Notes under the pieces: model-generated | What the model was told of the DNA's origin: nothing | Database searches by the model: none | The model's input: only the letters and a program-made list of their open reading frames with translations | From: Nematostella vectensis | Lineage: Eukaryota | Length of the DNA: 64,000 bases | Assembly: GCF_932526225.1 (NCBI RefSeq) | Contig: NC_064047.1 | Location: 1,689,027-1,753,026 of the forward strand | Direction of reading: 5' to 3' | Shown here: positions 334-64,000 of the stretch, piece by piece | Numbering within the stretch: the first letter of the stretch is position 1 | Layout: the number at the start of each line of letters is the position of its first letter | Program-made: the position numbers and the translations under genes

Positions 334-597
334 GTGAGTAATGCCTACCAACCTCACGGTATGTTATATATTATAGCCGAATTCGATGTTGCGATGTTGC
401 CGAGAATTCGAATTCATTTCTCGTCTAGAAATTGCGCGTAGTCATTCATAGAATTCTTCAATTCATTATACCGAGACCAATCAATTCCCTTGCTGCGTGC
501 ATTTAAATGGTTTATGATGCAACAGTAAAATATGAAAGCCATCGATTGGTTTCTGACAGCTGATTGACAGACAGTGTTATTTTTGTGACTATCTTAG

Positions 598-3260: not shown

Positions 3261-6200
3261 CACTGTGACGTCACAATTCGAGGGAGACAATTTGTCGAAC
3301 ACTGAAAAGATTCCAAATTTGGGGGGGGGGGGGGGGGGGGGGTAAAGGAGTCCCAAAAAGAGGGGGCCGAATCAAGATATCAAAAAGAGGGGAGATTTAT
3401 TGTTCTGTCGTGGATTTCCTTATATATTTCTTGTTATTTTTAAACCAAATACTGAAAATGGGGGTAGGGGGGCTCTGCCCGCCCTTAGATCCGCCCCTGA
3501 TGGGTATATGAATCATTCAATCTTGTTTTAAGAACTGTCGTTTTTCTAGTTCGCTTAGTCATTTCCTTATTAGGCATTACATACCATATATGGAAGTCCG
3601 CTGCAATCATTTTTTCTCATATCAAGAAAATTTAGCCAAAAATTGTCGTTTTTATAATTATAATATAATTATATATGATAAACTTGAACTTTAAAATTTT
3701 ATTAAAAAATAACTTTCCACATATCAAGAAAATTTAGCCAAAAATTGTCGTTTTCCCCAGACGCGGTAACTTCCATATAAGGAAACTAATATATTCCTTA
3801 TTTGGAAAACCTGCACGATTCTTGTCATTTTTAGGGCTGCCGTAACGCAGGTGCTTCGCAAACTTTGTGAATTGTATTCAGAAGGGAAAAACAGTGACTG
3901 TGACCATGTTTAGTCAATGGAGAAAGCCCCTGAAAAGAAACTAAAATTCCTCTGTACCAGACCCCTAAAGCGACAACGGTTTCTTCATATGCTCTTTTTT
4001 ATCGTTCTAGAACTTCGTTAGTCGATAATTTTCACGTAAACTTGCAGGAATTCGTGCCTTACTACGATTTTGATGGCAGCCATCTTAGAAAGCCTAGTCC
4101 CTAACGTTTTAGAATAGCACGCTCTCCCCAGGCTCTTTTCTCATCGTAAGCGAACATTGGTTCTTTAACGAGAGTGTCTGCAGGTGATTATTTATTCAGT
4201 ATCTTTTTCATATTCATATACAAGTATAACTCAGAATATAAAAATAAATATTGATTATTCCTGAATAAAAACGGAGACGAGCTAAGAAAATTAAAAAAAA
4301 AAAAAATTGTTTTTGCCAAACGCTGTCAAAATGTTTTATTCCTTATTTTTAAAAAATGAGCTTTCTAGCAGTACCGCAGTCCGCAGGTGCTTCGTTAACT
4401 TTATAACTTGTAATCAAAAGAGCAAAACAGTGACTGTGACCATCTTTAGTTAATGGAGAAAGTATCTGAAAAGAAACAAAAATTCCTCGGTACCAGACCT
4501 CCTAAACGACAACGTTTTCTTAGGGTGGGGTGTCGCGTTGATTGGAACTGGGCATTCCGTGCTGGTCGCTAACGATACGCAGGCCCGTACCCAGGGGGGG
4601 GGGGGGGGGGGGGGGTGCAGGAGGTGCGAAGGCACCCCCCAACAAGGGCCAAAAGTCCACTTTTTGTTCTCAATAGACGCGCTATTTGTAGACAAAGCTA
4701 AGAATCATAGGCTAGATCCCTCGTGCATGTAGCCAATTCCAAAGCTAAACGTCCCGTGGAGATACTGCAAAGGCATGCTTCAAAGGCAGCCTTGGTGGTT
4801 AAATTTTTATCAGAGAACTCCCTCCTCCCCCTTCCCCCCGGAAAAATTAGGTCCACTTTTTCGGATTTCGCCCCCCCCCCCCAAGAAAAATCCTGGGTAC
4901 GGGTCTGGATACGGTATATGCCCCTTTTAAACTTCCCCTATCTGAAATTGCCATTTTCCAGCATCTACCCAAATTATAACATTTTAACAGCGCTGAGCCT
5001 GCTTGCAGAAAACCCTCTTCGTCCGGTGATCGGGCGCCATTTTGTATTTGAAGCCGCGTAGTTCCTTGGAGGGAGCCAAAAACGGACGCCCAGCGCTTCT
5101 GGTATGAATGGTGTTCTTGAAATAGTTCATCTCCCGAGTTAAAAAAATGACCTTTTTACCACTTCCGGTATTCAATCTCGCTCCAGACCTCCTCGCGGAA
5201 ATCCCGCTGGTGAACACGTGACCACACATCAACATGGCTGCTTGTCGGCTCATTCGCGATGGGAGCTAGGTGCAGAGAAAATCTACTAGTTTCCTACAAA
5301 AATGACATTTAATTCACCTCCAATTTTACACACAGCAAGATGAATTCAGGATATACAATAGACGCATTTCCTGTGCATTTTCAATGCGTCATACGACCTC
5401 AGAGTAACCAAAGATTGTGTTAACTAGAAGAGGATAACATTTCATCTGATTTTAAACTCTATCGCCGATACATTTGGGTACTGCGTGTAGAAGTTTCACT
5501 TCATCTTCATAACTGCATAATTACAGAACATTGACAAGTATTTCATCACTGGTATGTTCCTAATTGTTCGTGTTTGGAGGTGTTAGGTGCGGACAAAATC
5601 TGCAAGTTTTATCTGGGGTTGAGCTCGGTTCGAAATTCATCTCCTACGCCTGATCTCTGCACCAAGCCAGACCCTTTCAAATTCCCTCTTCCCTTTTTTT
5701 AATCTCACAAATATTATTTTCAAATTTTTGGAAGAGGGGTAGATGAAAATTATTAGCTCCATGGTCTGGGTTTAAACTAATTCTTGCTTTCGTTTTATAA
5801 TTTTACACAATGCAAACTAGCTGATTTCACAAGTCACTCGATTCCATGCATAAGATTCTAGATTGTTTCGTAATTATTATTAAAATAAACTTATCTCTTG
5901 CATTTGATCAAACTAAACACGGCTGTCCGTTTGTTATTGTATTTTGATTATTTTTTTCTCACTGTTTATAATTCCGAAATGTGCATACTTTCCAAATGAA
6001 TCCATAGTGTAAAAAAATGCAGTCAGTCAATTCGAAATTAGTTTTTTTAACCGACTCCGTTTCCCTTCAAGGCAAGATTTGTAGGATTTCTTGTATTGTT
6101 TTGGTTTTATGTTTTGTTTTGAGTTGCTGCAAGAATTATTAGCATAAATAGTCATGCTTGACCATTAACTCGCTCTAGAGATCTATTTATCAATCAAAAC

Positions 6201-12929: not shown

Positions 12930-13700
12930 ACCACCGTTAGCAATTTATTTACCCCATCCTTGTCACCCACCAATCATAACATTATCATCACCAATTAATT
13001 CACCTCATCCTTGTCACCCACCAATCATAACATAATCATCACCAATAAATTCACCTCATCCTTGTCACCCACCAATCATAACATAATCATCACCAATAAA
13101 TTCACCTCATCCTTTTGCCCATCAATCATAGCATAATCATCACCAACTAATTTATCTCATCCTTGTCACCAACCAATCATAACATTATCATCACCAATTA
13201 ATTTATCTCATCCTTTTGCCCATCAATCATAACATAATCATCACCAATATATTTACCCCATCCTTGTCACCCACCAATCATAACATTATCATCACCAATT
13301 AATTTATCTCATCCTTTTGCCCATCAATCATAACATAATCATCACCAATATATTTACCCCATCCTTGTCACCAACCAATCATAACATTATCATCACCAAT
13401 TAATTTATCTCATCCTTTTGCCCATCAATCATAACATAATCATCACCAATATATTTACCCCATCCTTGTTGCCGATCAATCATAACACCATCATCAATTA
13501 TTTTACCCCATCCTTGTCACCCATCAATCATAACATAATCATCACCAATTAATTTACCCCACCCTTGTCCCGTAACAATCATAACACCATTACCAATTAA
13601 TTTACCCCATCCTTGTCCCTTAACAGTCATAACACCATTACCAATTAATTTACCCCATCCTTGTCACCCACCAATCATAACATCATCATCACCAGTTATT
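12930..13700. repeat. Minisatellite of about 56-60 bp, about 13 copies, in REPS1 intron 6 (catccttgtcacccaccaatcataacataatcatcaccaat...)
   Basis: Regular recurrence of ccatccttgtcaccc / ccatccttttgccc units. Confidence 0.85.
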
Positions 13701-19650: not shown

Positions 19651-20155
19651 TGAGTCACGCAAGAGATGTCACGCAGTACTCACTTACCGTCACGCTTAAA
19701 TATCGAGCTACATCGAGCTCAAACAAGTCACGAAATGAGTCACGCATTACACACTTACCGTCACGCTTAAATATCGAGCTACATCGAGCTCAAACAAGTC
19801 ACGAAATGAGTCACGCATTACACACTTACCGTCACGCTTAAATATCGAGCTACATCGAGCTCAAACAAGCCACGAAATGAGTCACGCATTACATTCAAAC
19901 AAGTAACGAAATGTGTCATGCATTACAAACTTACCGTCACGCTCGAACACGGTCTCCATCGAGCTCAAACAAGTCACGATATGCGTCATGCATTACACAC
20001 TTACCGTCACGCTTAAATATCGATCTACATCGAGGTCAAACAAGTCACGAAATGAGTCACGCATTATACACACTTACCGTCACGCTTAAATATCGAGCTC
20101 CAACGAGCTCAAACAAGTCACGAAATGAGTCACGCATTACACACTTTCCGTTGTA
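19651..20155. repeat. Minisatellite of about 71 bp, about 7 copies, beginning at the REPS1 exon 16 donor. Units retain an aaacaa|gtcacg pseudo-donor.
   Basis: Unit cttaccgtcacgcttaaatatcgagctacatcgagctcaaacaagtcacgaaatgagtcacgcattacaca. The first unit is continuous with the exon end aaacaa|gtgagtcacgca. Confidence 0.85.
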
Positions 20156-42933: not shown

Positions 42934-42984
42934 ATGGCAAACAAACCAAGGGGATACGGCTTCAGTGCAGAAGCAGCTAAAAAG
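42934..42984 (+). CDS. Transgelin/calponin-like gene, alternative first coding exon 1a (MANKPRGYGFSAEAAKK)
   Basis: ATG plus 51 nt, then donor aaaag|gttggt, phase 0. Matches transgelin N-terminus MANKGPSYGMSREVQSK. Confidence 0.7.
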
Positions 42985-43827: not shown

Positions 43828-43878
43828 ATGGCAAACAGAGGAAATGTATTTGGATTTGACATAGAGATACAAGCAAAG
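43828..43878 (+). CDS. Transgelin/calponin-like gene, alternative first coding exon 1b (MANRGNVFGFDIEIQAK)
   Basis: A second ATG plus 51-nt exon with donor caaag|gtagga, phase 0. Paralogous to 1a and lies 894 bp downstream. Confidence 0.6.
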
Positions 43879-45564
43879 GTAGGATGGAAAAAAAGGAGGT
43901 TGTATTTTGAGTGAATCGATGAGTTCAGTTTCCAACATGTTCCGTTCATTGAAAACACTGAACAACACTCTATATTTCAAACCCTAAGAATGCCATGTGT
44001 TTGCGGAAAACTATCCAGTATTTCACCCACATTTTAACTTCTCTTAGCCATTATATCGACAAAGTGAATTTTTTGGACGCATTGAATTTATCATAGTTCG
44101 TTATAATCTCATTTTAAAATGTCCTGGCCTTATTTAATCCAGAATCATATTTTTTAATTATAAAAGTGGACCTCGAATACAATTTTTAGAAATATCCCTC
44201 CCGCTCTCACATCTTCCAAATTCTTTCTTTATATTGAAGATATATAATTGATTACCCATTCGAGTAGAATATCGTTTTTTGATGGAAAGCATGCGCGAGT
44301 TCTAAATAAATCATCATGTTCGGTTACAGTATGTAATGGAACTTTGAATGGATGTAAAGGCAGCGCGGTCTCGGAAGCCACGCGTGCGCTATTTCTGAGT
44401 GCTATTGTGGCTTTTAGAGAAGTGAAATCACGTTTAGAATGAGGTCAATTGACATTTCCGCAGGCCTGTCACTTGTACAGAGGTTTTGCATTTCCCATCA
44501 TTTCAAAAAAATGTAATGGTAAAAGTAAAAGGCAAAAGGGGGAAAATATGTTTGAGACAGGTTTCGTGTCGCTATTTTTCGTTATGCGTTTTTCGCATAT
44601 GTTATTAAAAAAAAAATAAAAAGTTTGGCTATCAAACAAATCAATCAATATTCTCCTTGTCCTTATATCAATGCAATATGCCGCATCTCCTCATAAAACG
44701 CTAACTTGTTTATTTTCCTTTTTAAAGAATTTCTTGTCGACCACTTGTACATGTATGTCATTGTTTATATTTGAAAATATAACGATTTACTCGCAAAAGT
44801 ACTTACAATTCCACAATTGATGAAGCCTGATAGTAGGTCCTTTCGCAATCAAGAGGGCCATCAGATTAAGGTTGAACATTCGTCAAACACAACAATCGGA
44901 CTTCTTGAAACGAACATTTTCCAGTTTTCGCAACGTAATTTGACTGGGTCTCGCAGTAATAACGGAGAGAGCGTTACAAAACAAGGCATATTTTAATTAA
45001 TTAGTGAGTTTTAATGGCATTTTGTGCTTCTATTATCTCCTTAGAATTTAGCCTGACAAGCCTGTACCAGTTGCCCTCGGGCAAGCGAGTGGTCGTTCAC
45101 AGTAAACGCAAATTCCTAGGTCGAATGTCATTTTTTCTGGGGTGACCAAGCTTTGAGGGTATTTTGAGAGGTCACGCACCTTTATGCTTGCTATGAGAAA
45201 ACTCTCAGAATGCCTACCATATTTCCATGAGGGGCAGGGCACGTGCACCAGACAGCCCTCCCTACAAAAAAACTAAAGTGGAAGGCTAAAATACATGTGT
45301 ATGATATAGCCCATCATTTTGATATAATGAGCCAATCAGAGCGCGCGAGAATCTGTATTTAAGCTCGATATTAATTTTTACCTCTATTTATGCGCGTATG
45401 TACCAGGCGCTCCCCCCGCCCCCCGACATCTTTGTGGCCAAAAAGTGGGTCATTTCTTATTATTGAAATTTTAAATACTATGATTTTTCCGTATAATACC
45501 TATAACTGCGAACCTTTGTAATGGGCGAGAACAATTTATCACTGAAAAATACCTGACTTATTTT

Positions 45565-46533
45565 CATCTCAGATCTAGCAAAGCTCTTATCCAAGTAAGG
45601 ATGATGGGAATATGTGATAAAATGAATAAATTCTCATCTCAGATCTAGCAAAGCTCTTATCCAAGGAGGATGGAATAAGTGATAAAATGAATAAATTCTC
45701 ATCTCAAATCTAGCAAAGCTCTTATCCAAGGAGGATGGAATAAGTGATGATAAAATGAATACATTCTCATCTCAAATCTAGCAAAGCTCTTATCCAAGGA
45801 GGATGGGAATAAGTGATAAAATGAATAAATTCTCATCTCAAATCTAGCAAAGCTCTTATCCAAGGAGGATGGGAATAAGTGATGATAAAATGAATAAATT
45901 CTCATCTCAAATCTAGCAAAGCTCTTATCCAAGGAGGATGGAATAAGTGATGATAAAATGAATACATTCTCATCTCAAATCTAGCAAAGCTCTTATCCAA
46001 GTAAGGATGATGGGAATAAGTGATAAAATGAATAAATTCTCATCTCAAATCTAGCAAAGCTCTTATCCAAGGAGGATGGGAATAAGTGATGATAAAATGA
46101 ATAAATTCTTATCTCAAATGTAGCAAAGCTCTTATCCAAGGAGGATGGGAATAAGTGATGATAAAATGAATAAATTCTCATCTCAAATCTAGCAAAGCTC
46201 TTATCCAAGTAAGGATGATGGGAATAAGTGATAAAATGAATAAATTCTCATCTCAGATCTAGCAAAGCTCTTATCCAAGGAGGATGGGAATAAGTGATGA
46301 TAAAATGAATAAATTCTTATCTCAAATGTAGCAAAGCTCTTATCCAAGGAGGATGGGAATAAGTGATGATAAAATGAATAAATTCTCATCTCAAATCTAG
46401 CAAAGCTCTTATCCAAGTAAGGATGATGGGAATAAGTGATAAAATGAATAAATTCTCATCTCAGATCTAGCAAAGCTCTTATCCAAGTAAGGATGATGGG
46501 GATAAGTTATAAATGAATGAATTCTCATTTCAG
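45565..46533. repeat. Minisatellite of about 70-75 bp, about 13 copies, immediately upstream of transgelin exon 2. It is derived from the intron 3' end plus exon 2 start, and units carry ttctcatctcag| pseudo-acceptors and ccaa|gtaagg pseudo-donors.
   Basis: Unit attctcatctca(g/a)atctagcaaagctcttatccaag(taag)gatgatgggaataagtgat(gat)aaaatgaataa. The last degenerate unit ends in the real acceptor ctcatttcag|ATCGATTCAAAG. Confidence 0.85.
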
Positions 46534-46673
46534 ATCGATTCAAAGTATGACCCCACGAAAGAAGAAGAGGCGCGTAAGTGGATCGACACGGTCCTGGGGG
46601 AGTCGATATTTGGCGAGAATGGCGGTGTAGACACGGTGCATCAGACGCTCAAAGACGGCCAGGTCCTGTGCAG
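46534..46673 (+). CDS. Transgelin-like exon 2 (CH domain start: IDSKYDPTKEEEARKWIDTVLGE...HQTLKDGQVLCR)
   Basis: Acceptor ctcatttcag|atc, donor tgcag|gtgggc, phase 0 in and phase 2 out. ORF track 46513..46731. Matches KYDEELEERLVEWI...LKNGVIL. Confidence 0.85.
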
Positions 46674-46840
46674 GTGGGCCGTACAGCCAAATTCGTTGTT
46701 GCGTGACCTCGGCGAATTCGTTGTTGCGTGACCTCGGCGAATTCGAACTCCTTGTCTCGTTTGGGAATAGCGCGTAGTCAAACAACCGTCTAAACTAATC
46801 GATGGGGTTATAAGCAATTTGACTGCACACAGTTAGAGAA

Positions 46841-46950
46841 TTGATTGGTCACAGTGGTATGATTGGTCACGTGGTATGATTGGTCACGTGGTATGATTGG
46901 TCACGTGGTATGATTGGTCACGTGGTATGATTGGTCACGTGGTATGATTG
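46841..46950. promoter_or_regulatory. Tandem array of 6 copies of GATTGGTCACGTGGTAT (inverted CCAAT box next to a CACGTG E-box), bracketed by a 17-bp inverted repeat, in transgelin intron 2
   Basis: 17-bp periodic copies. The flanks gggaatagcgcgtagtc (46766-46782) and gactacgcgctattccc (46951-46967) are reverse complements. Confidence 0.5.
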
Positions 46951-47476
46951 ACTACGCGCTATTCCCAGACGAGAAATGGATTAAGAATTTCTCGCGAGAA
47001 TTTTCTTGATAGGTTGAATAAGCGCTGGGGCGCTAATTCATTTTATTTTTCGCGAGGCGATTATTTTTTTAGAATTAATTCTATCTCTTGATAAAAGATG
47101 CTTTTTGCATAAGGTAGGGAGTAAGCAATTTCCCAGTACCATATCGAAACAACATTTTAATGATAAAATGTTGGGGCGGATAGTAAGGCATCCTCTGGTA
47201 CCCAGGGCGTCGCGGAGATCGGGCACACAGGGCGCGCGCCAGAAAGAAAGAGCACCGCTTCCTGTGTGCCCGATCTCCGCGACGCCCTGGGTCCCCGAGG
47301 ATGGTAGTAAGGTCAGTTATATTGTTACTTTCCTTCTAGCGTTCAGTCAGCCTCTCGTCATCGACATCTATTGAGTGCACACGTTAAAGCAAGGCGCTTA
47401 TTCGGCGAGGCGTTAAATTTTAAGGGAGGCGCTTTTTCGATTAATGACAACTTATAGAGTGTTTCTCTGCTTTTAG

Positions 47477-47537
47477 GCTAGCTAACCGTTTGGGCGGTAA
47501 TTTGAAGATTAATCAGCAGAAGATGCCCTTTAAACAG
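47477..47537 (+). CDS. Transgelin-like exon 3 (LANRLGGNLKINQQKMPFKQ)
   Basis: Acceptor gcttttag|g, donor aaacag|gtgacg, 1+60 nt. The paralog exon 61761-61821 has the same 61-nt structure. Confidence 0.75.
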
Positions 47538-47877: not shown

Positions 47878-47985
47878 ATGGAAAATATTGGCAACTTTCT
47901 GTCATTCATTGAGAATAAGTTAGGCGTGGCTAAAAATGACCTGTTCCAGACGGTAGATCTCTACGAGAAGTCTAATATGTGGAAC
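47878..47985 (+). CDS. Transgelin-like exon 4 (CH domain: MENIGNFLSFIENKLGVAKNDLFQTVDLYEKSNMWN)
   Basis: Acceptor attttacag|atg, donor ggaac|gtaagt. Matches transgelin [33 protein letters not shown]. Confidence 0.85.
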
Positions 47986-48684: not shown

Positions 48685-48717
48685 GTCATTTGCTGTATTC
48701 ATGCTGTTGGACGAAGG
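48685..48717 (+). CDS. Transgelin-like exon 5 (VICCIHAVGRR)
   Basis: Acceptor cttctag|gtc, donor gaagg|gtaaga, 33 nt. The paralog has a 33-nt counterpart (VINGIHALGRK). Confidence 0.75.
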
Positions 48718-49183
48718 GTAAGAAAAAATAACCAGGAAAAGTATCACTAATACACTCACACTCGCACTGAAATTAAACTAGACTCACATAGAACGTACGT
48801 ACTACACTCACACTCATATAGAACTTGGAAAATATGCTTAAAAACCTATCATTTTTTAGGCCTTTGAAATATACTATCTTAAATACTACTCGCTAGACGT
48901 ATTCTAGCAAAAGTTAAAGCACATTTTCAGATGTATACGTAGGCAGCATTTCGTCATTGAAAGCTGCTTAAATTTTCCACATAACGTTTTTTCAGACGTT
49001 CTAAAAAAGAACACTCTCCTCTATTTCTCCTAATACTTGCTCTTTTTCTTGCTTTCTTTCCTTGAAGGTCGTCTCTGAGCTACCCTTTAGGTTCCCAGTT
49101 ACTCATGATAATTTTTTGTTAATCTTCTCTTCTTTCTCTTAGCCTAACATCTCCTCTTTATTCTCTAACTCATCCATACGCAG

Positions 49184-49384
49184 GCTTACTCTCTGGGAAA
49201 GGACGTCCCTCAACTTGGGCCCAAAGAATCGACAAAAAATCCTCGTCAATTCACAGAAAGACAACTCAACGAGGGAAAAACGATAATAAACAGCTTCCAA
49301 ATGGGACCGGCGGCCAAAAATGTTGCTACTGCGTCCGGCCAGAGTTTCGGTCGTCAACGACAGATAATCAATGATAACAAATAA
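49184..49384 (+). CDS. Transgelin-like terminal exon 6a (calponin-like repeat; ...PRQFTERQLNEGKTIINSFQMGPAAKNVATASGQSFGRQRQIINDNK*)
   Basis: Acceptor ccatacgcag|gct. Matches transgelin C-terminus [40 protein letters not shown]. Stop TAA 49382-49384. Confidence 0.8.
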   Translation, partial: AYSLGKDVPQLGPKESTKNPRQFTERQLNEGKTIINSFQMGPAAKNVATASGQSFGRQRQIINDNK

Positions 49385-51105
49385 ATAGTCCATACAATAA
49401 CTATTCCTTAATATTTAATTAAAATGTTTCGTGATGACATACTGAGGAGAAGAAACCCAGGCCATTCCCTTAAAGTGGACTTTCAATTTTATCGACTTGG
49501 ACCCAAGAAAGTCTTGACTACGAGTCGAATTCTTAATCAGACTTTCTTCGAGATTTCCTTACGAAAATCTATTTACGACTCGGCCAGTGCCGTAGCTCAG
49601 TAGGCCTGTATACTGTACGCTTGTGGATATTTGCCCGCGTATGCAGTCAAAACATCTACCTAATAAAAAACTTTATCTAAATTGAGAGTACATATAAAAA
49701 AATATATATTAACAATCATTATCCATAGTATGATATTCATAAATACTTATTTTTTCTTGTTAAGATGATATATGAAATTAAACTAAATCATTCCTTGATC
49801 CGGATTGCTGTTTCGTACTATATTTGTATTTTATTAATACTGTAAATCTAGATATATTATATCACCTGAGGTTATTAGGGGACCCCCAGATACTTCTGGC
49901 GAGAGAGGGCCGCGCACGTCACGTCTTTTTTCTGTGTTTGCGAGTCAAGCAATTTCTTTTGAAAAATTGTACATCATATTTGGAAATAGCACAAGGACAT
50001 TGTTTGAGAAATATTAGCTTGCGCAGTAATGCACATGTGATTAAGGATCCAGTGCTTTCCGTCTTCTGCAGCGAAAATCAAACAGATCTCCGTGATAAGA
50101 GAAGACACAAAGTACGCTGGCACTCCGAGCATGGCGTGCTACAAGGCAAACGTTTCCCTGACAATGTTAACCGTGCCAATGAATGGTAAACACAATCAAA
50201 GGCTCTGTGAGCCAACTCGTGATTGCTTATTTATTAATTTATTATTAGTTATTTTCTTGTGTGCATAAAAGATATACATGATACTGAACAAAGAATGAAC
50301 ACATTCAAGATGCTGAGAGTACATAGAAATGTCCTTATACCTTTTTCCTTTTCGATGTCATGACACGCCAAGAACAGTAAAATAAAATACTATTATTATA
50401 AAAAATAAAATAAAAAATAAAAAAAATAAAAAAATGAGAGGTGCGTGATCACCTCTCTCTAACCGCCAAAATGTGGAAAGACCATCAAATATTATCTTTG
50501 TTTTCATATGATACCTTTGACTGCGCGCCCCCCTCGGTATATCGTGGGTTCGCTGAGAATCCCGGATGACGCTCCTCAATGATAAATGAGTCACGCCTTC
50601 TTGATCACATCAGGCACCTAATGTCACGCTTACCGCCACGTCAGGGATAATACGCGCCTGAGAATTCCGGATGATGCTCCTCAATAATACATATGTCACG
50701 CCTTCAAAATCACGTCAGGCACTATGTCAGGCCCTCTTAATCACGCCTGGGGTATGTCACTCCTTCATCACGTCACATCTTCATCGCGTTGCCAAAAGAT
50801 GCCCGTATACATTTTTTATGGCGCACGGGCGTCAAAAGGCCTGAGTTGTATTTAATTAACCTCACAACGAAGCATTATGTCACGCCATCGCCATTATCCT
50901 GCGTTACAGCGGGATGACACTCTATTTGATCCGTCCCATGTTACATTCATGGTGTCCTACATCGTATAGGATCAGCGAGACAAATGTTTGGCTCGCCGCG
51001 TGTCTTCATCGCCTGCCAAAAAGGCCCTCCATTCGTATCCATCTCACGTCGAGCACTCGTTCAAATGCTGTAAAGCCCCTTTAAATGCTTTATTTATTTT
51101 CTCAG

Positions 51106-51219
51106 GCTGTGGCCAAAGGCCTGAACGTGCCTCTCTTGGGCCCTAAGGAGGCGGAAGCAAACCCGCGTGACTTCACAGAGGAGCAGCTCAAGGGAGGGGC
51201 GGGGATACATTTCGCGTAG
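51106..51219 (+). pseudogene. Truncated duplicate of the transgelin terminal exon (6b: AVAKGLNVPLLGPKEAEANPRDFTEEQLKGGAGIHFA*), followed by a minisatellite
   Basis: Acceptor ttttctcag|gct is intact. The calponin repeat is missing and replaced by the 23-bp tandem array at 51241-51400. Confidence 0.5.
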
Positions 51220-51240
51220 GACCCCTGACGATATTTGCAT

Positions 51241-51400
51241 AGGTCACGTGACGATATTTGCATAGGTCACGTGACGATATTTGCATAGGTCACGTGACGA
51301 TATTTGCATAGGTCACGTGACGATATTTGCATAGGTCACGTGACGATATTTGCATAGGTCACGTGACGATATTTGCATAGGTCACGTGACGATACTTGCA
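51241..51400. promoter_or_regulatory. Tandem array of 7 copies of AGGTCACGTGACGATATTTGCAT, a palindromic E-box (GTCACGTGAC) plus an octamer (ATTTGCAT) composite
   Basis: 23-bp perfect tandem copies immediately after the truncated terminal-exon copy 6b. Confidence 0.5.
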
Positions 51401-52539
51401 TGTAGTTGATTTTATGGTAGATTTGTTTCTCGCTAAACCCCAATGTTTCGTTTTTTGAAGTTAGTCAAAGGCGTCTAATAAAAACCGGCATGATAACACA
51501 GTCCCGATCAGATACATGACTGTATAGATTACTTGGAAAAAGTGGTATTGGCAAAAAACGTTTTACAACAAATTTAGACAGAACTCACACGATCAAACTA
51601 AAGACTTTGCAAATCACTTATTAGAGACCTTACGCAAGGACGACAGCGACGGTCTCGAGAAAAGGTCATTCCAAAACGATCGTTGACGTTCGTGACGGCG
51701 CGCGTAGAAATTGAAAATAGGAACATGCCGTTATAAGGGGCGTCCACACTAACACGGATTCGTTGGGATCTGTATACTTTTTGATACCAGGCCTTCCGTC
51801 CACACTAACACGCGCGCTGGATCCAGCAAATCCGGAAAGTGAATCAAAATGAATCCGTGTACTTTGGTCCATAGTGATGACGACCCCGCCGTTTTTTAGC
51901 AATTCGCGAGCGCGCGCGCCGTACTTGATGCCGTCGCCCTAATCCTTGCGTAAGGCCCCTACCTCCAAGACGCTAGTATATCATCGTGTAGGAAGAAGTT
52001 TATTAAAAAAACGGAGCATGTGAACATTAGGTGTTTTCTTCTGTAAGGGGGCGGTTGCATCTCTTCTTACGAATCTGGACTGCTTACTATCTACCTTTCA
52101 AGGATCTATGGTCGATCTTGTTAGTAACCCAGATTATATTCTTCTTGTTTTCTTCCTTTATCATGTCTTTGATAAATACACAAGTATCCTTTATCTTAAC
52201 GCGTATAAACAGCGCCAATTCTCACGTCTAACCCGAGCTTAGTCATCTGTACTAGATCATTCTCTTGATCCTATTCTCTTGACATGTCACATCAAATACC
52301 ACGGCATTGCAAAACACGATTTATCGCATCGAAGAACTCGAGTCACACTTATCCTGACATAGGCCACGTCACATGTCTTTCAAGGCCTTCAGGCTGAATT
52401 TGGGATGGGGGGGGGGGGGGGGGTGGGGGTGGGAAAGCTCTCTTAAAACTCTAAATCCCTGCAAGTAAAAAATCCGCGTTTCCATTTAGTCGCCAAGAAC
52501 GTTTTTGTTTATAATAATAATTGTTAATATTAATGACAT

Positions 52540-52900
52540 GCGTCACAGCATCCATGTCACGCTATTGTCATATCACGTCTCATTCCATGTCATTTTTTCA
52601 TGTCACACCACACTGTCACGCGTTACAGCATTCATATTCATGTCACGCCATTATCATCTCACGTCTCATTCCATGATGCCGTGTCATAACATATTAATGT
52701 CATGCGTCACAGCACCCATGTTACGCTATTGCCATGTCACGTCCCACTCCATGCCATTTTTTCATGTCACACCACACTGTCACGCGCTACAGCATTCATG
52801 TCACGCCATTGTCATATCACGTCTCATTGCATGTCATGTCATGTTAAACCATATTGTCACGCTACACGGCATACACGTCACGCCATGTCACATTCCATAC
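52540..52900. repeat. Tandem repeat of about 115 bp, about 3 copies (catgtcacg... family), immediately upstream of exon 6c
   Basis: Repeated blocks ...catgtcacgctattgtcatatcacgtctcattccatg... The long ORF-track ORF 52505..53113 is mostly this repeat. Confidence 0.75.
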
Positions 52901-52915
52901 TATCCTCTGCTCCAG

Positions 52916-53113
52916 GCTGCTGCCAAGGGACTGGACGTCCCTGTGCTTGGCCCGAAGGAGGCAGACGCGAATCCACGCCAGTTCAGTGAAGAGCAGCTCA
53001 GAGCCGGAGAGGGAATCCTGACCAAACAGGCCGGCCCGAAAGCGGACGAGGTTGCTACGGCAACTGGTACTCACGCCGGTCGCCCAAGGCAGATAGTTGA
53101 CCGCTACAAGTAG
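52916..53113 (+). CDS. Alternative or duplicated transgelin terminal exon 6c (AAAKGLDVPVLGPKEADANPRQFSEEQLRAGEGILTKQAGPKADEVATATGTHAGRPRQIVDRYK*)
   Basis: Acceptor cctctgctccag|gct, phase 0, compatible with exon 5. Full-length calponin-repeat-like ORF ending TAG at 53113 (last 198 nt of ORF track 52505..53113). Confidence 0.6.
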   Translation, partial: AAAKGLDVPVLGPKEADANPRQFSEEQLRAGEGILTKQAGPKADEVATATGTHAGRPRQIVDRYK

Positions 53114-62291: not shown

Positions 62292-64000
62292 CTATTGAGA
62301 CACATGGTGAGTCAGGGGTTTGGGTATAGAATATAAACCTAATCTCTTCACCAGGCAACTATCTTGTACTCTTCGATGTTCGGGTTTTCTGTGGCAAAGC
62401 GATGATCGGGAGGAGATGGGTATGAGCGTCTCCCATCCCCAAGCCCCCCCCACCCCCCTCAATTTGTCTGATAATCGATACTGACAAATTTCCGTCCATC
62501 CAATTTATCATTTACAACGATCATTGCCAATAATTTGGGGAATCATCCTCAGGGAATCAGGGCGACGCGAAGACCGGAAGCGAACGTACGAGCGAAGACA
62601 AAGGCGTCTTTTCGTCCTCTTTCTTTCGCGCACGCTTCCTGTATCCCCGATCTCTGCAACGCCCTGGGTCCCCGAGGATGTTTGGGAATATGATGTATTT
62701 TTGGGAAAGGTTTTTCTGAAAACTGAAAACGCTGGAAATTCGACATTGAAAAAAGAAAATAAGAATAAATAATATCTATACTCGATAAAAAATCAACAAA
62801 ATCAGTTTACTCGTACCAAGTTCCTTTATCGACATCAATCCCATACAATTTGCTTTGAATTTTCATTGATTAATAGCGACTATCGATTCTAATGAATTAA
62901 TATGCGGAGCAGTAGCGAACTTAATCTGTTTCAATATCACAGTAATTCAAACACATCCTACAATCAAAACTGGCTCATTCCTAATCCTAAAACAATAGAC
63001 TATCTGCGGACGTTTTGAAGCCATTGACATGTCGAGGAGACGCTCCATGTTACCATGGCAACCATTTTTTTCACACATTAGTTTCCCAAAAACTAAAAAG
63101 TAGTGAATTTTTCATATTTTAGTCCTGTTTTCATATTTAAACTTTATAAGTTTGTTTAGGTGACAAGTTTTACAACAGCGCTAGAATGTTTTTACCTTCG
63201 ATATTTGGGGGAGGGGTGGGTAAATTCTGCTCTCTCAGCTGTTGTTAAAAATGTCACTAGATTTATTTTTTTCTGGTTTCTTAGCCATTATTTAACATGC
63301 AAACCGCATTTTCAGATAGATAAATCGATTATTTTTTCAGAATATTCAATTTTATAAATAAAAGTCATTTTCAGACAATCAGGGACAAATTACTTAGGGA
63401 CACAACGGTTTTGCGCACGTAGAACACGGGTGCGCGCATCTTAAGATCGGAACCTACTCTGTTCCTGTCTATAAGCCCCCCATTCAATGTCGTTCGGAAA
63501 TCAACTTTCCCTACAATTCAATATATATTTCCACTATTGATCAATACTATGAGCATAAATACATATTTTTTTCTGTAATAATTCCAGAAGAAGAATACAA
63601 GATGGCGTACCCAAGATGTCAAAAAATTCTTACAAAAAATGATAATAAACATTTTATGGGCTTTTTGCACCGTAAAGCCGTAAAAAGGTTGATTCTGACA
63701 TATCTGAATGATGCACGATGATTTCAACTCGATATCTGATAATTTAGGCAATATTTGAAAGAATAGCTAAACAAACGTATTTATGACGTCATTGCGACGT
63801 CATAATTATTCGACAACACCCAAGATTTTAAGTTTGATGGTCATAGCCTAAGCGGTTCATGAAATACGGAGGGTGGGCCTTTTGTTAATTTAGTGTGATC
63901 CCTGAAGCGCGAACGCGTGCACAGTGTTGATTTTAATTGTCGATTGCTAAACCGTATATTGTAGTTTTAACTATGTCCTGTGTTTTGATTTGCGGCATGA

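What the first reader, a model, noticed from the sequence alone, without database searches (positions are those of the whole stretch)
46766..46967. Hairpin-bracketed tandem array of CCAAT(inverted)+E-box composite sites in transgelin intron 2
Six 17-bp copies of GATTGGTCACGTGGTAT each carry ATTGG (reverse CCAAT, NF-Y type) directly abutting CACGTG (bHLH-ZIP E-box). The array is flanked by perfect 17-bp inverted repeats (gggaatagcgcgtagtc / gactacgcgctattccc). It is either a homotypic regulatory cluster inside the gene or a small MITE whose payload is a tandem binding-site array.
Basis: partly seen in the sequence, partly recalled or inferred. Interest (0 to 1): 0.55.

Follow-up and report, generated by a model that had tools for sequence, protein, structure and literature searches.

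The report
Old transposon remnant with variable repeat
The hairpin-flanked repeat in this sea-anemone muscle-gene intron is most likely a decayed miniature transposon whose 17-base inner segment was recently copied in tandem and varies in copy number between individuals, so the "binding-site cluster" is probably a by-product, not a built enhancer.

Summary
There are five exact 17-mers, not six, plus one leading 18-nt variant that lacks CACGTG. The perfect 17-bp inverted repeat is the core of a longer degenerate one (45 nt at 84%; arms alignable over about 80 nt).

The window is Nematostella vectensis. The gene is an Mp20/transgelin-like CH-domain gene, and the element lies in intron 2 (46674-47476), starting 8 nt after the 5' splice site.

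A diverged partial copy of the same element lies 46 kb away in another gene's intron. It carries a single E-box-less unit, so the array is a local expansion and not a family payload. The other available assembly has the element at the same site with two fewer units, so the array is a VNTR, like the four largest other arrays in this gene.

My best reading is an old MITE-like insertion (46684-47009, TA flanks) with an internal slippage-generated minisatellite, which is a known kind. Regulatory function was not tested. The array is absent from the Actinia CH-gene loci examined, and its spacing differs from the known NF-Y/USF arrangement.

One loose end remains. Four unrelated CACGTG-bearing arrays all lie in or against CH-domain genes in about 150 kb sampled (post hoc P≈0.005). 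Genome-wide copy number could not be measured.

The parts
46682..46683 (.). TA flanking the left end (putative target-site duplication)
   Evidence: Homology between the A-left arm and the B arm ends at TA|yAGCC. Weak evidence: a dinucleotide only.
46684..46784 (+). Left terminal arm. It includes an internal 25-bp tandem duplication (46690-46739) and the perfect 17-bp core (46763-46779).
46785..46842 (+). Unique internal segment of the element, homologous to the internal part of copy B
   Evidence: blastn 46810-46855 vs 515-470, 78%, E=1.5e-6; alignment
46843..46860 (+). Leading 18-nt variant unit GATTGGTCACAGTGGTAT (ATTGG present, no CACGTG)
   Evidence: Present in both haplotypes.
46861..46945 (+). 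Five exact 17-nt units GATTGGTCACGTGGTAT. Only three are present in the v1 assembly haplotype.
46945..47009 (-). Right terminal arm. The perfect core is 46950-46966. A 9-bp palindrome lies at 46986-47003. The outer part is shortened and degenerate relative to the left arm.
47010..47011 (.). TA flanking the right end (putative target-site duplication)
   Evidence: alignment. Weak.
368..581 (-). Copy B: a diverged partial relative. It has the right arm with terminus TA|TAGCCGAATTCG, a single unit-like GATTGGTCTCGGTAT, and the internal segment. The left arm is missing. It lies in a ~253-nt intron of a TRPA-like gene.
   Evidence: E=3.8e-9 and 3.1e-8 with single-arm queries; 117/183 identical with the array collapsed
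46534..46673 (+). Coding exon 2 of the Mp20/transgelin-like gene. Its 5' splice site (GT at 46674) is 8 nt upstream of the TA.
47477..47537 (+). Coding exon 3 (closes intron 2)

Best explanation
This is an old, probably immobile copy of a small non-autonomous DNA transposon (MITE-like). It is about 326 bp long (46684-47009), has long degenerate terminal inverted repeats and is flanked by TA. It inserted into a pre-existing intron 2 of a Nematostella vectensis Mp20/transgelin-like gene.

Inside it, a ~17-nt segment bounded by the short direct repeat TGATTG was duplicated and then expanded, by replication slippage or unequal exchange. The amplified unit happens to read ATTGG-T-CACGTG. The CACGTG may have arisen from the CACAGTG seen in the edge unit. 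The array now behaves as an ordinary copy-number-variable minisatellite, like the other arrays in this gene. The apparent cluster of CCAAT and E-box sites is one 17-mer copied several times, not an assembled regulatory module.

Shown here: the inverted repeat, the second family copy, the allelic copy-number difference, and the age of the intron position. Inferred: transposition as the origin, TA as the target duplication, slippage as the expansion mechanism, and lack of function.
For: 1. The inverted repeat is specific and long: 45 nt at 84% with a 17-nt perfect core, z=13.5, and unique among 20 arrays.
2. A third arm lies 46 kb away in another gene's intron. It was found with single-arm queries at E=3.8e-9 and 3.1e-8. 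Homology continues into the internal segment and the unit. Homology among arms ends at TA|yAGCC.
3. Copy B has one unit-like segment without an E-box. The array and the E-box are therefore specific to this locus.
4. The v1 assembly (GCA_000209225.1, DS469525.1) has the element at the same site with 4.4 instead of 6.4 units. It also has a SNP in the right core, so the 17-bp repeat is not perfect there.
5. Other arrays of the gene also differ between the haplotypes: 69-bp 13.6 vs 21.6 copies, 23-bp 7.7 vs 3.7, 80-bp 3.7 vs 4.3, and 14-bp 13.6 vs 12.9. The 25-bp duplication does not differ (2.2 vs 2.2).
6. The intron position is shared with the paralogs P0006 and P0007 (exon 2 ends, or exon 3 begins, at residue 64), and their loci lack the element. 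The element is therefore a later insertion into an older intron.
7. The same intron holds a clear MITE 180 nt downstream. It has an 8/9-bp target duplication and exact shared termini with three other copies. Small transposons do land in this intron.
8. Tandem-repeat-containing MITEs are a described kind (PMC3879986).
Against: - Only one further family copy was found in about 150 kb of N. vectensis DNA. It lacks one arm, so family size, intact structure and superfamily are unknown.
- The TA/TA flank is weak evidence, and the outer 6 nt of the right arm match the other termini poorly.
- No empty site was available.
- The CCAAT flanks (GACCAATCA) fit the RRCCAATSR consensus as I recall it (not checked here), and bHLH factors that recognise CACGTG exist in Nematostella (PMC11093582). 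Binding is therefore chemically plausible.
- CACGTG-bearing arrays are over-represented in CH-domain genes in the sample: 4 of 11 arrays inside the genes against 0 of 27 outside (Fisher P=0.0045, post hoc). Pure neutrality does not predict this.
Confidence: 0.72

Rival explanations
1. Exapted intronic enhancer. The array, whatever its origin, is bound by a bHLH-ZIP factor (USF, MITF/TFE or Max type), with or without NF-Y. It tunes expression of this muscle effector gene, and copy number acts as a dial.
For: - The unit carries a perfect CACGTG with a GGTCAC flank. Its CCAAT has flanks that match the RRCCAATSR consensus as I recall it (sequence).
- Three other, non-homologous arrays also carry CACGTG. 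They are the 23-mer at 51226-51401, the L002 37-mer at 13006-13254 and the L002 22-mer at 3761-3865. All lie in or against CH-domain genes.
- 4 of 11 arrays inside CH genes carry CACGTG against 0 of 27 outside (P=0.0045).
- CGTGAC/ACGTGA are the joint-top 6-mers among array units, tied with TCATCA at 5 of 32 families.
- Calponin-family genes are muscle-enriched in Nematostella (PMC10060217).
Against: - The association is post hoc. It does not survive correction over all 6-mers (and my Poisson estimate), and the sample is centred on CH genes.
- The array differs by two units between two haplotypes and the 23-mer array by four, as expected for unconstrained minisatellites.
- The two Actinia tenebrosa CH-gene loci examined contain no E-box array.
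- The E-box starts at -7 and +10 from CCAAT, against the orientation-specific -12/-11 known for NF-Y/USF.
- A 17-bp period is, from what I recall of the NF-Y-DNA complex, shorter than the stretch of DNA one NF-Y trimer contacts, so not every unit could be occupied at once.
Confidence: 0.13
2. RNA-level element. Transcribed as part of the pre-mRNA, the arms pair into a long stem next to the 5' splice site. This either influences splicing of intron 2 or is processed into small RNAs.
For: The 347-nt intronic segment folds with the arms paired: MFE -127.6 kcal/mol, z=-4.5 against shuffles. The element starts 8 nt after the 5' splice site.
Against: - The stability follows trivially from the inverted repeat.
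- The splice site itself is left unpaired in the predicted fold.
- No Rfam family matches the element, even at E<=1.
- A stem with a ~160-nt loop is unlike known miRNA precursors.
- The other haplotype has a mismatch in the core, and copy B has lost one arm.
Confidence: 0.04
3. Not a transposon. A local inverted duplication created the two arms, and copy B arose by an unrelated segmental or ectopic repair event.
For: Only three arms are known. The target duplication is only a dinucleotide. The right arm's outer end is poorly matched. No autonomous partner was identified.
Against: - The third arm lies 46 kb away in a different gene's intron, in a different flanking context. Its homology stops at the same TA|yAGCC boundary as the left arm.
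- Divergence of about 20-35% fits old dispersed copies better than a local duplication.
- Neighbouring sequence holds a bona fide MITE.
Confidence: 0.1

Closest known systems
Tandem-repeat-containing MITEs (DTC84 of the clam Donax trunculus; pearl-type elements of oysters)
   Same: Short non-coding element. A central array of a few tandem core repeats is held in a 'cassette' of flanks bearing inverted repeats. Array length varies between copies. Each repeat contains a palindrome, proposed as a hotspot for length change (PMC3879986); here each unit contains the palindrome CACGTG.
   Different: DTC84 has short inverted repeats, a microsatellite at one array end, an AA putative target duplication and ~160-bp-class core repeats in high copy number. 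Here the arms are long (~45-80 nt), there is no microsatellite, the flanks are TA, the unit is 17 nt, and the only other family copy seen has no array.
Tc1/mariner-type MITEs (TA target duplication)
   Same: TA on both sides. The left terminus after the TA reads CAGCC, and from memory Tc1-type ends also begin with CAG. The element is small and non-coding and has terminal inverted repeats.
   Different: No transposase-encoding partner or conserved superfamily terminus was identified. The right terminus does not match. The TA evidence is weak.
Helentron-derived HINE / DINE-1-like elements
   Same: Inverted repeats near the ends, central tandem repeats, and a short palindrome (46986-47003) between the right inverted repeat and the end (features as described in PMC4067079).
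   Different: HINE subterminal repeats are 12-15 bp and sit 2-4 nt from the 5' end. Here arm homology continues about 60-80 nt outward on the left side. No TT insertion site or T-runs are evident at the boundaries defined by arm homology.
NF-Y/USF composite sites in mammalian promoters and LTR12-type repeats
   Same: CCAAT and CACGTG lie close together inside a repeated element.
   Different: The known arrangement places the E-box at -12/-11 upstream of CCAAT in an orientation-specific way (PMC3730095; 10-12 bp in PMC4889920). Here the upstream E-box starts at -7 and the next one at +10. Occupancy is unknown.

Membership tests
MITE (non-autonomous TIR DNA transposon) | Terminal inverted repeats | tested here: met
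   45 nt at 84% with a 17-nt perfect core. Arms alignable over ~80 nt. z=13.5 against shuffled flanks.
MITE (non-autonomous TIR DNA transposon) | Small size and no coding capacity | tested here: met
   About 326 bp between the TA flanks. About a third of it is the 17-bp array.
MITE (non-autonomous TIR DNA transposon) | Target-site duplication at both ends | tested here: inconclusive
   TA at 46682-83 and 47010-11. This is a dinucleotide only, the right terminus is degenerate, and no empty site was available.
MITE (non-autonomous TIR DNA transposon) | Dispersed multi-copy family | tested here: inconclusive
   One further diverged partial copy at window 368-581. None in L002-L004, about 60 kb more N. 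vectensis DNA. No whole-genome search was possible.
MITE (non-autonomous TIR DNA transposon) | Termini shared with an autonomous transposase-encoding element | not testable with these tools
   No eukaryotic genome or repeat library was available. No transposase-like ORF was seen by eye among the long ORFs of the window and loci (not scanned against Pfam).
Tandem-repeat-containing MITE (DTC84/pearl type) | Central tandem array between flanks bearing inverted repeats, with variable repeat number | tested here: met
   (6.4 vs 4.4 units between haplotypes)
Tandem-repeat-containing MITE (DTC84/pearl type) | Array present across family copies; microsatellite at one array end; AA target duplication | tested here: not met
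   Copy B has a single unit. There is no microsatellite. The flanks are TA.
Helentron-derived HINE/DINE-1-like | 12-15 bp subterminal inverted repeat 2-4 nt from the 5' end; TT insertion site; 3' palindrome | tested here: not met
   Arm homology extends ~60-80 nt outward of the core on the left. Only the palindrome (46986-47003) fits. Criteria from PMC4067079.
NF-Y/USF-type composite regulatory element | CCAAT with consensus flanks plus CACGTG | tested here: met
   GACCAATCA and CACGTG in each of five units. This is sequence only.
NF-Y/USF-type composite regulatory element | Orientation-specific E-box position (-12/-11 from the first C of CCAAT) | tested here: not met
   Here the E-box starts at -7 and +10 (against PMC3730095).
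NF-Y/USF-type composite regulatory element | Conservation or constraint | tested here: not met
   Copy number differs between two haplotypes. No E-box arrays in the Actinia tenebrosa CH-gene loci examined. Paralog introns lack the element.
NF-Y/USF-type composite regulatory element | Factor occupancy, open chromatin, enhancer activity | not testable with these tools
   No chromatin or expression data were accessible.

The most novel reading that the evidence does not exclude
In Nematostella, short tandem arrays built around (G)GTCACGTG arise again and again in the introns and 3' ends of the duplicated calponin/transgelin-type muscle genes. They act as lineage-specific, copy-number-variable binding platforms for a bHLH-ZIP factor. 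VNTR length would then tune expression of paralogous muscle effectors, and the array in this MITE would be one such platform recruited from a transposon.
Probability: 0.08. Interest if true: 0.55.

Novelty: new member of a known kind. Interest (0 to 1): 0.2.

Why it matters
As it stands this matters little. It is one more case of a small transposon remnant seeding a minisatellite, in a genome full of both.

It does serve as a caution. A tandem array turns any chance motif in its unit into an apparent homotypic site cluster, so such clusters should be counted as one event.

The finding would matter only if the recurrent CACGTG arrays in the CH-domain muscle genes proved to be bound and active. 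That would be an example of enhancers that are born from repeats and vary in length between individuals in a cnidarian.

Tried and rejected
- **Pattern scans for the arm.** Scans of the metagenome and viral collections for TGACTACGCGCNATTNCNARACGAGA gave 0 hits. These collections evidently do not hold this genome.
- **Fetching the locus from other assemblies.** P0002 is not on record. Only the v1 assembly (GCA_000209225.1) is reachable.
- **Enlarging the N. vectensis sample through a GPCR paralog search.** The search returned only the query's own protein from N. vectensis. That expensive search was wasted.
- **Looking for a transposase ORF to sample the genome through multi-copy proteins.** I saw none by eye among 136 stop-free segments of >=100 aa. 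These were not run against Pfam.
- **'Introner' idea** (that the element created the intron). Rejected for A, because the intron position is shared with paralogs that lack the element. For B, 33 nt separate the 5' splice site from the element end.
- **Helentron/HINE classification.** Rejected because the inverted repeat extends far outward.
- **Common origin of the four CACGTG arrays.** blastn gave no cross-hits between them or their flanks.
- **Known RNA family.** No Rfam match to the element. The only hits were sub-threshold miRNA-like hits to the neighbouring hairpin MITE.
- **General rule that arrays here are bracketed by inverted repeats.** This holds for only 1 of 20 arrays.

Full report
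**What is in the sequence**

The region holds a 17-bp tandem array at 46842-46950 (TRF: 6.4 copies, 98% matches). Five units at 46861-46945 are exactly GATTGGTCACGTGGTAT. The first unit (46843-46860) is an 18-nt variant, GATTGGTCACAGTGGTAT, which has ATTGG but no CACGTG. A final partial GATTG runs into the right arm. The count is therefore five CCAAT/E-box composites, not six.

The 17-bp inverted repeat is exact, at 46763-46779 and 46950-46966 (0.11 matches expected at up to 3 mismatches). It is only the core of a longer imperfect repeat, 46740-46784 / 46945-46989, 45 nt at 84%. I compared the flanks of 20 tandem arrays in the window against shuffled controls. Only this array has flanking inverted repeats (score 21 against 7.3±1.0, z=13.5). 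The bracket is real and specific to this array.

**Organism and gene**

Exon translations give a CH domain (PF00307, E=3.9e-16). The best database hits are Nematostella vectensis 'muscle-specific protein 20 isoform X1' and a v1 'predicted protein'.

Mapping the isoform X1 protein onto the window gives these exons:
- exon 1 at 42934-42984;
- exon 2 at 46534-46673;
- exon 3 at 47477-47537;
- exon 4 at 47878-47985;
- a mini-exon near 48688-48717;
- a last exon ending at 49381 (tblastn match 49181-49381).

The element lies in intron 2 (46674-47476, 803 nt). The paralogs P0006 and P0007 have an exon boundary at the same residue and lack the element. The intron is therefore older than the insertion.

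**A second family copy**

A blastn search of the element against the window found a related stretch on the minus strand near 415-450 and 475-487. Reading it and aligning it shows homology from the internal segment, through one unit-like GATTGGTCTCGGTAT, into a full right arm. That arm ends ...GCAACATCGAATTCGGCTA|TA.

Single-arm queries recover this copy at E=3.8e-9 and 3.1e-8. With the array collapsed, the two elements align at 117 of 183 positions.

The three arms align over about 80 nt with indels. The left arm and the arm of copy B stop being similar at TA|CAGCC / TA|TAGCC. The right arm, read inward, begins TA|TCAAGAAAATTC. This places the element at 46684-47009, with TA at 46682-83 and 47010-11. 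That would suit a Tc1/mariner-type target duplication, but a dinucleotide and a degenerate right end are weak evidence.

Copy B lacks its other arm. It fills most of a ~253-nt intron of a TRPA-like gene.

No further copy was found by blastn or an nhmmer profile in about 60 kb of additional N. vectensis DNA (L002-L004) or in two Actinia loci. Genome-wide abundance could not be measured, because no eukaryotic genome collection is searchable here (searches gave nothing).

**The array is a local, recent and variable expansion**

Copy B has a single E-box-less unit. The array is therefore not something the family carries.

The v1 assembly (L001; GCA_000209225.1, scaffold DS469525.1) has the element at the same position with a 34-bp gap in the array. 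That gives 4.4 units against 6.4. It also has a substitution in the right core (CCCAG to CCAAG), so the repeat is not perfect in that haplotype.

The unit begins with TGATTG, and the same hexamer starts the right arm (TGATTGACTACG). A 17-nt segment between short direct repeats is the classic substrate for slippage duplication. The diverged edge unit reads CACAGTG. This suggests that CACGTG arose by a 1-nt change and that the changed unit was then amplified. This last step is inference.

The left arm contains its own 25-bp tandem duplication, and the arm of copy B an 8-bp one. The family sequence therefore slips readily.

Other arrays in this gene also differ between the two haplotypes:

| Array | Window copies | v1 copies |
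|---|---|---|
| 69-bp | 13.6 | 21.6 |
| 23-bp | 7.7 | 3.7 |
| 80-bp | 3.7 | 4.3 |
| 14-bp | 13.6 | 12.9 |
| 25-bp duplication | 2.2 | 2.2 |

. The E-box array behaves like the largest of its neighbours.

**The regulatory reading**

The CCAAT flanks (GACCAATCA) fit the NF-Y consensus as I recall it. CACGTG-binding bHLH factors are assumed for Nematostella (PMC11093582). However, all five composites are copies of one 17-mer and so count as a single event.

On the CCAAT strand the sequence reads CACGTG-A-CCAAT-CATAC-CACGTG. E-boxes therefore start at -7 and +10 from the first C of CCAAT. The reported NF-Y/USF arrangement is orientation-specific, at -12/-11 (PMC3730095; '10-12 bp' in PMC4889920).

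The array is copy-number polymorphic. It is absent from paralog introns, and no E-box array occurs in the Actinia tenebrosa CH-gene loci examined (L005, L006). None of this excludes binding, and no chromatin data were accessible.

**A loose end**

CACGTG occurs 25 times in the window, against 7.5±2.6 expected. Twelve of these are in two arrays: this one and a 23-bp array at 51226-51401. The latter has the unit TGACGATATTTGCATAGGTCACG and starts 7 nt after the stop codon of an alternative last exon.

The paralog locus L002 has two more such arrays:
- a 37-bp array (13006-13254; GGTCACGTGACC plus CAATTG) starting a few bases into intron 4 of the P0006 gene;
- a 22-bp array (3761-3865) spanning the stop codon of the neighbouring CH gene.

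The four arrays are not alignable to one another. Of 38 arrays in the N. vectensis sample, 4 of 11 inside CH genes carry CACGTG, against 0 of 27 outside (Fisher P=0.0045). Among 32 array families, CGTGAC and ACGTGA tie with TCATCA as the most widely shared 6-mers.

This is post hoc. It comes from DNA centred on CH genes, and it does not survive correction over all 6-mers. I record it as unexplained, not as evidence of function.

**Other rivals**

As RNA, the segment folds with the arms paired (-127.6 kcal/mol, z=-4.5). That follows from the repeat itself. The splice site stays unpaired, and no Rfam family matches the element.

A Helentron-type (HINE) classification fails, because the arm homology runs far outward of the core.

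**Comparison and verdict**

The closest described kind is the tandem-repeat-containing MITE (DTC84/pearl type; PMC3879986). Both have a central short array in a cassette bearing inverted repeats, with variable repeat number and a palindrome in each repeat. This element differs in having long arms, TA flanks, no microsatellite and an array confined to one copy.

I rate it a new member of a known kind, of low interest.

Noticed in passing
window 47189-47303 (flanks 47180-47188 and 47304-47312): A near-perfect hairpin with a ~42-bp stem lies in the same intron (RNA MFE -98.8 kcal/mol, z=-14). It is a bona fide MITE made of two back-to-back termini, flanked by a 9-bp direct repeat (A/G)TAGTAAGG. 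Three other copies of the same terminus end exactly at ...CCCCGAGGATG: window 62614-62680, L004 13145-13206 and L004 22374-22426. The v1 assembly has an N-gap at this spot. Only sub-threshold miRNA-like Rfam hits were found.
   Followed up: partly
window 51226-51401: A second E-box array: 7.7 copies of the 23-bp unit TGACGATATTTGCATAGGTCACG, giving the GTCACGTGAC palindrome plus an ATTTGCAT octamer. It starts 7 nt after the stop codon of the alternative last exon '...GAGIHFA*' (51085-51219). The v1 haplotype has only 3.7 copies. It has no flanking inverted repeats.
   Followed up: partly
L002 13006-13254 and L002 3761-3865 (N. vectensis scaffold DS469548.1, paralogous CH genes): Two more CACGTG arrays. 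One is a diverged 37-bp array (GGTCACGTGACC plus CAATTG) beginning a few bases after the 5' splice site of intron 4 of the P0006 gene. The other is a 22-bp array (TGAACACGTGAAGCAGCA...) that spans the stop codon of the neighbouring CH gene. Together with the two window arrays, 4 of 11 arrays inside CH genes carry CACGTG against 0 of 27 outside (P=0.0045, post hoc).
   Followed up: partly
window 338-590 (+ strand gene), copy B at 368-581: The partial family copy B makes up most of a ~253-nt intron that splits '...LLMNLL | VGLAVGDIDAIQK...' of a TRPA-like channel gene. Its terminus lies 33 nt from the 5' splice site, and its inner end reaches the acceptor region. I did not check whether this intron is old or was gained with the element.
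   Followed up: no
window 45560-46536: A 69-bp minisatellite (13.6 copies here, 21.6 in the v1 haplotype) fills the end of intron 1 and runs right up to the acceptor of exon 2. The unit start ATTCTCATCTCAAATCTAG resembles the real acceptor context aattctcatttcag, so each unit may carry a cryptic acceptor-like sequence.
   Followed up: no
window 42934-42984 and 43828-43878; 49169-49381, 51085-51219, 52900-53113: The gene has two similar alternative first coding exons (MANKPRGYGFSAEAAKK and MANRGNVFGFDIEIQAK). It also has three alternative or duplicated last exons. Two encode a calponin-repeat tail and one encodes a short '...IHFA*' tail like paralog P0006.
   Followed up: partly
window 19668-20151, 52527-52837, 46690-46739: GTCACG(C) recurs in the units of several otherwise unrelated arrays. 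Five of 19 window arrays carry it (two of the five are adjacent, related arrays), against about 0.4 occurrences expected from the density outside arrays. The reason is unknown.
   Followed up: partly
L006 790-862 and 2749-2832 (Actinia tenebrosa): Two perfect 17-bp tandem arrays, CCTTGCATATAGGGGCG x4.3 and its reverse complement x4.9, lie in inverted orientation about 1.9 kb apart. This looks like a transposon whose terminal inverted repeats are themselves tandem arrays.
   Followed up: no
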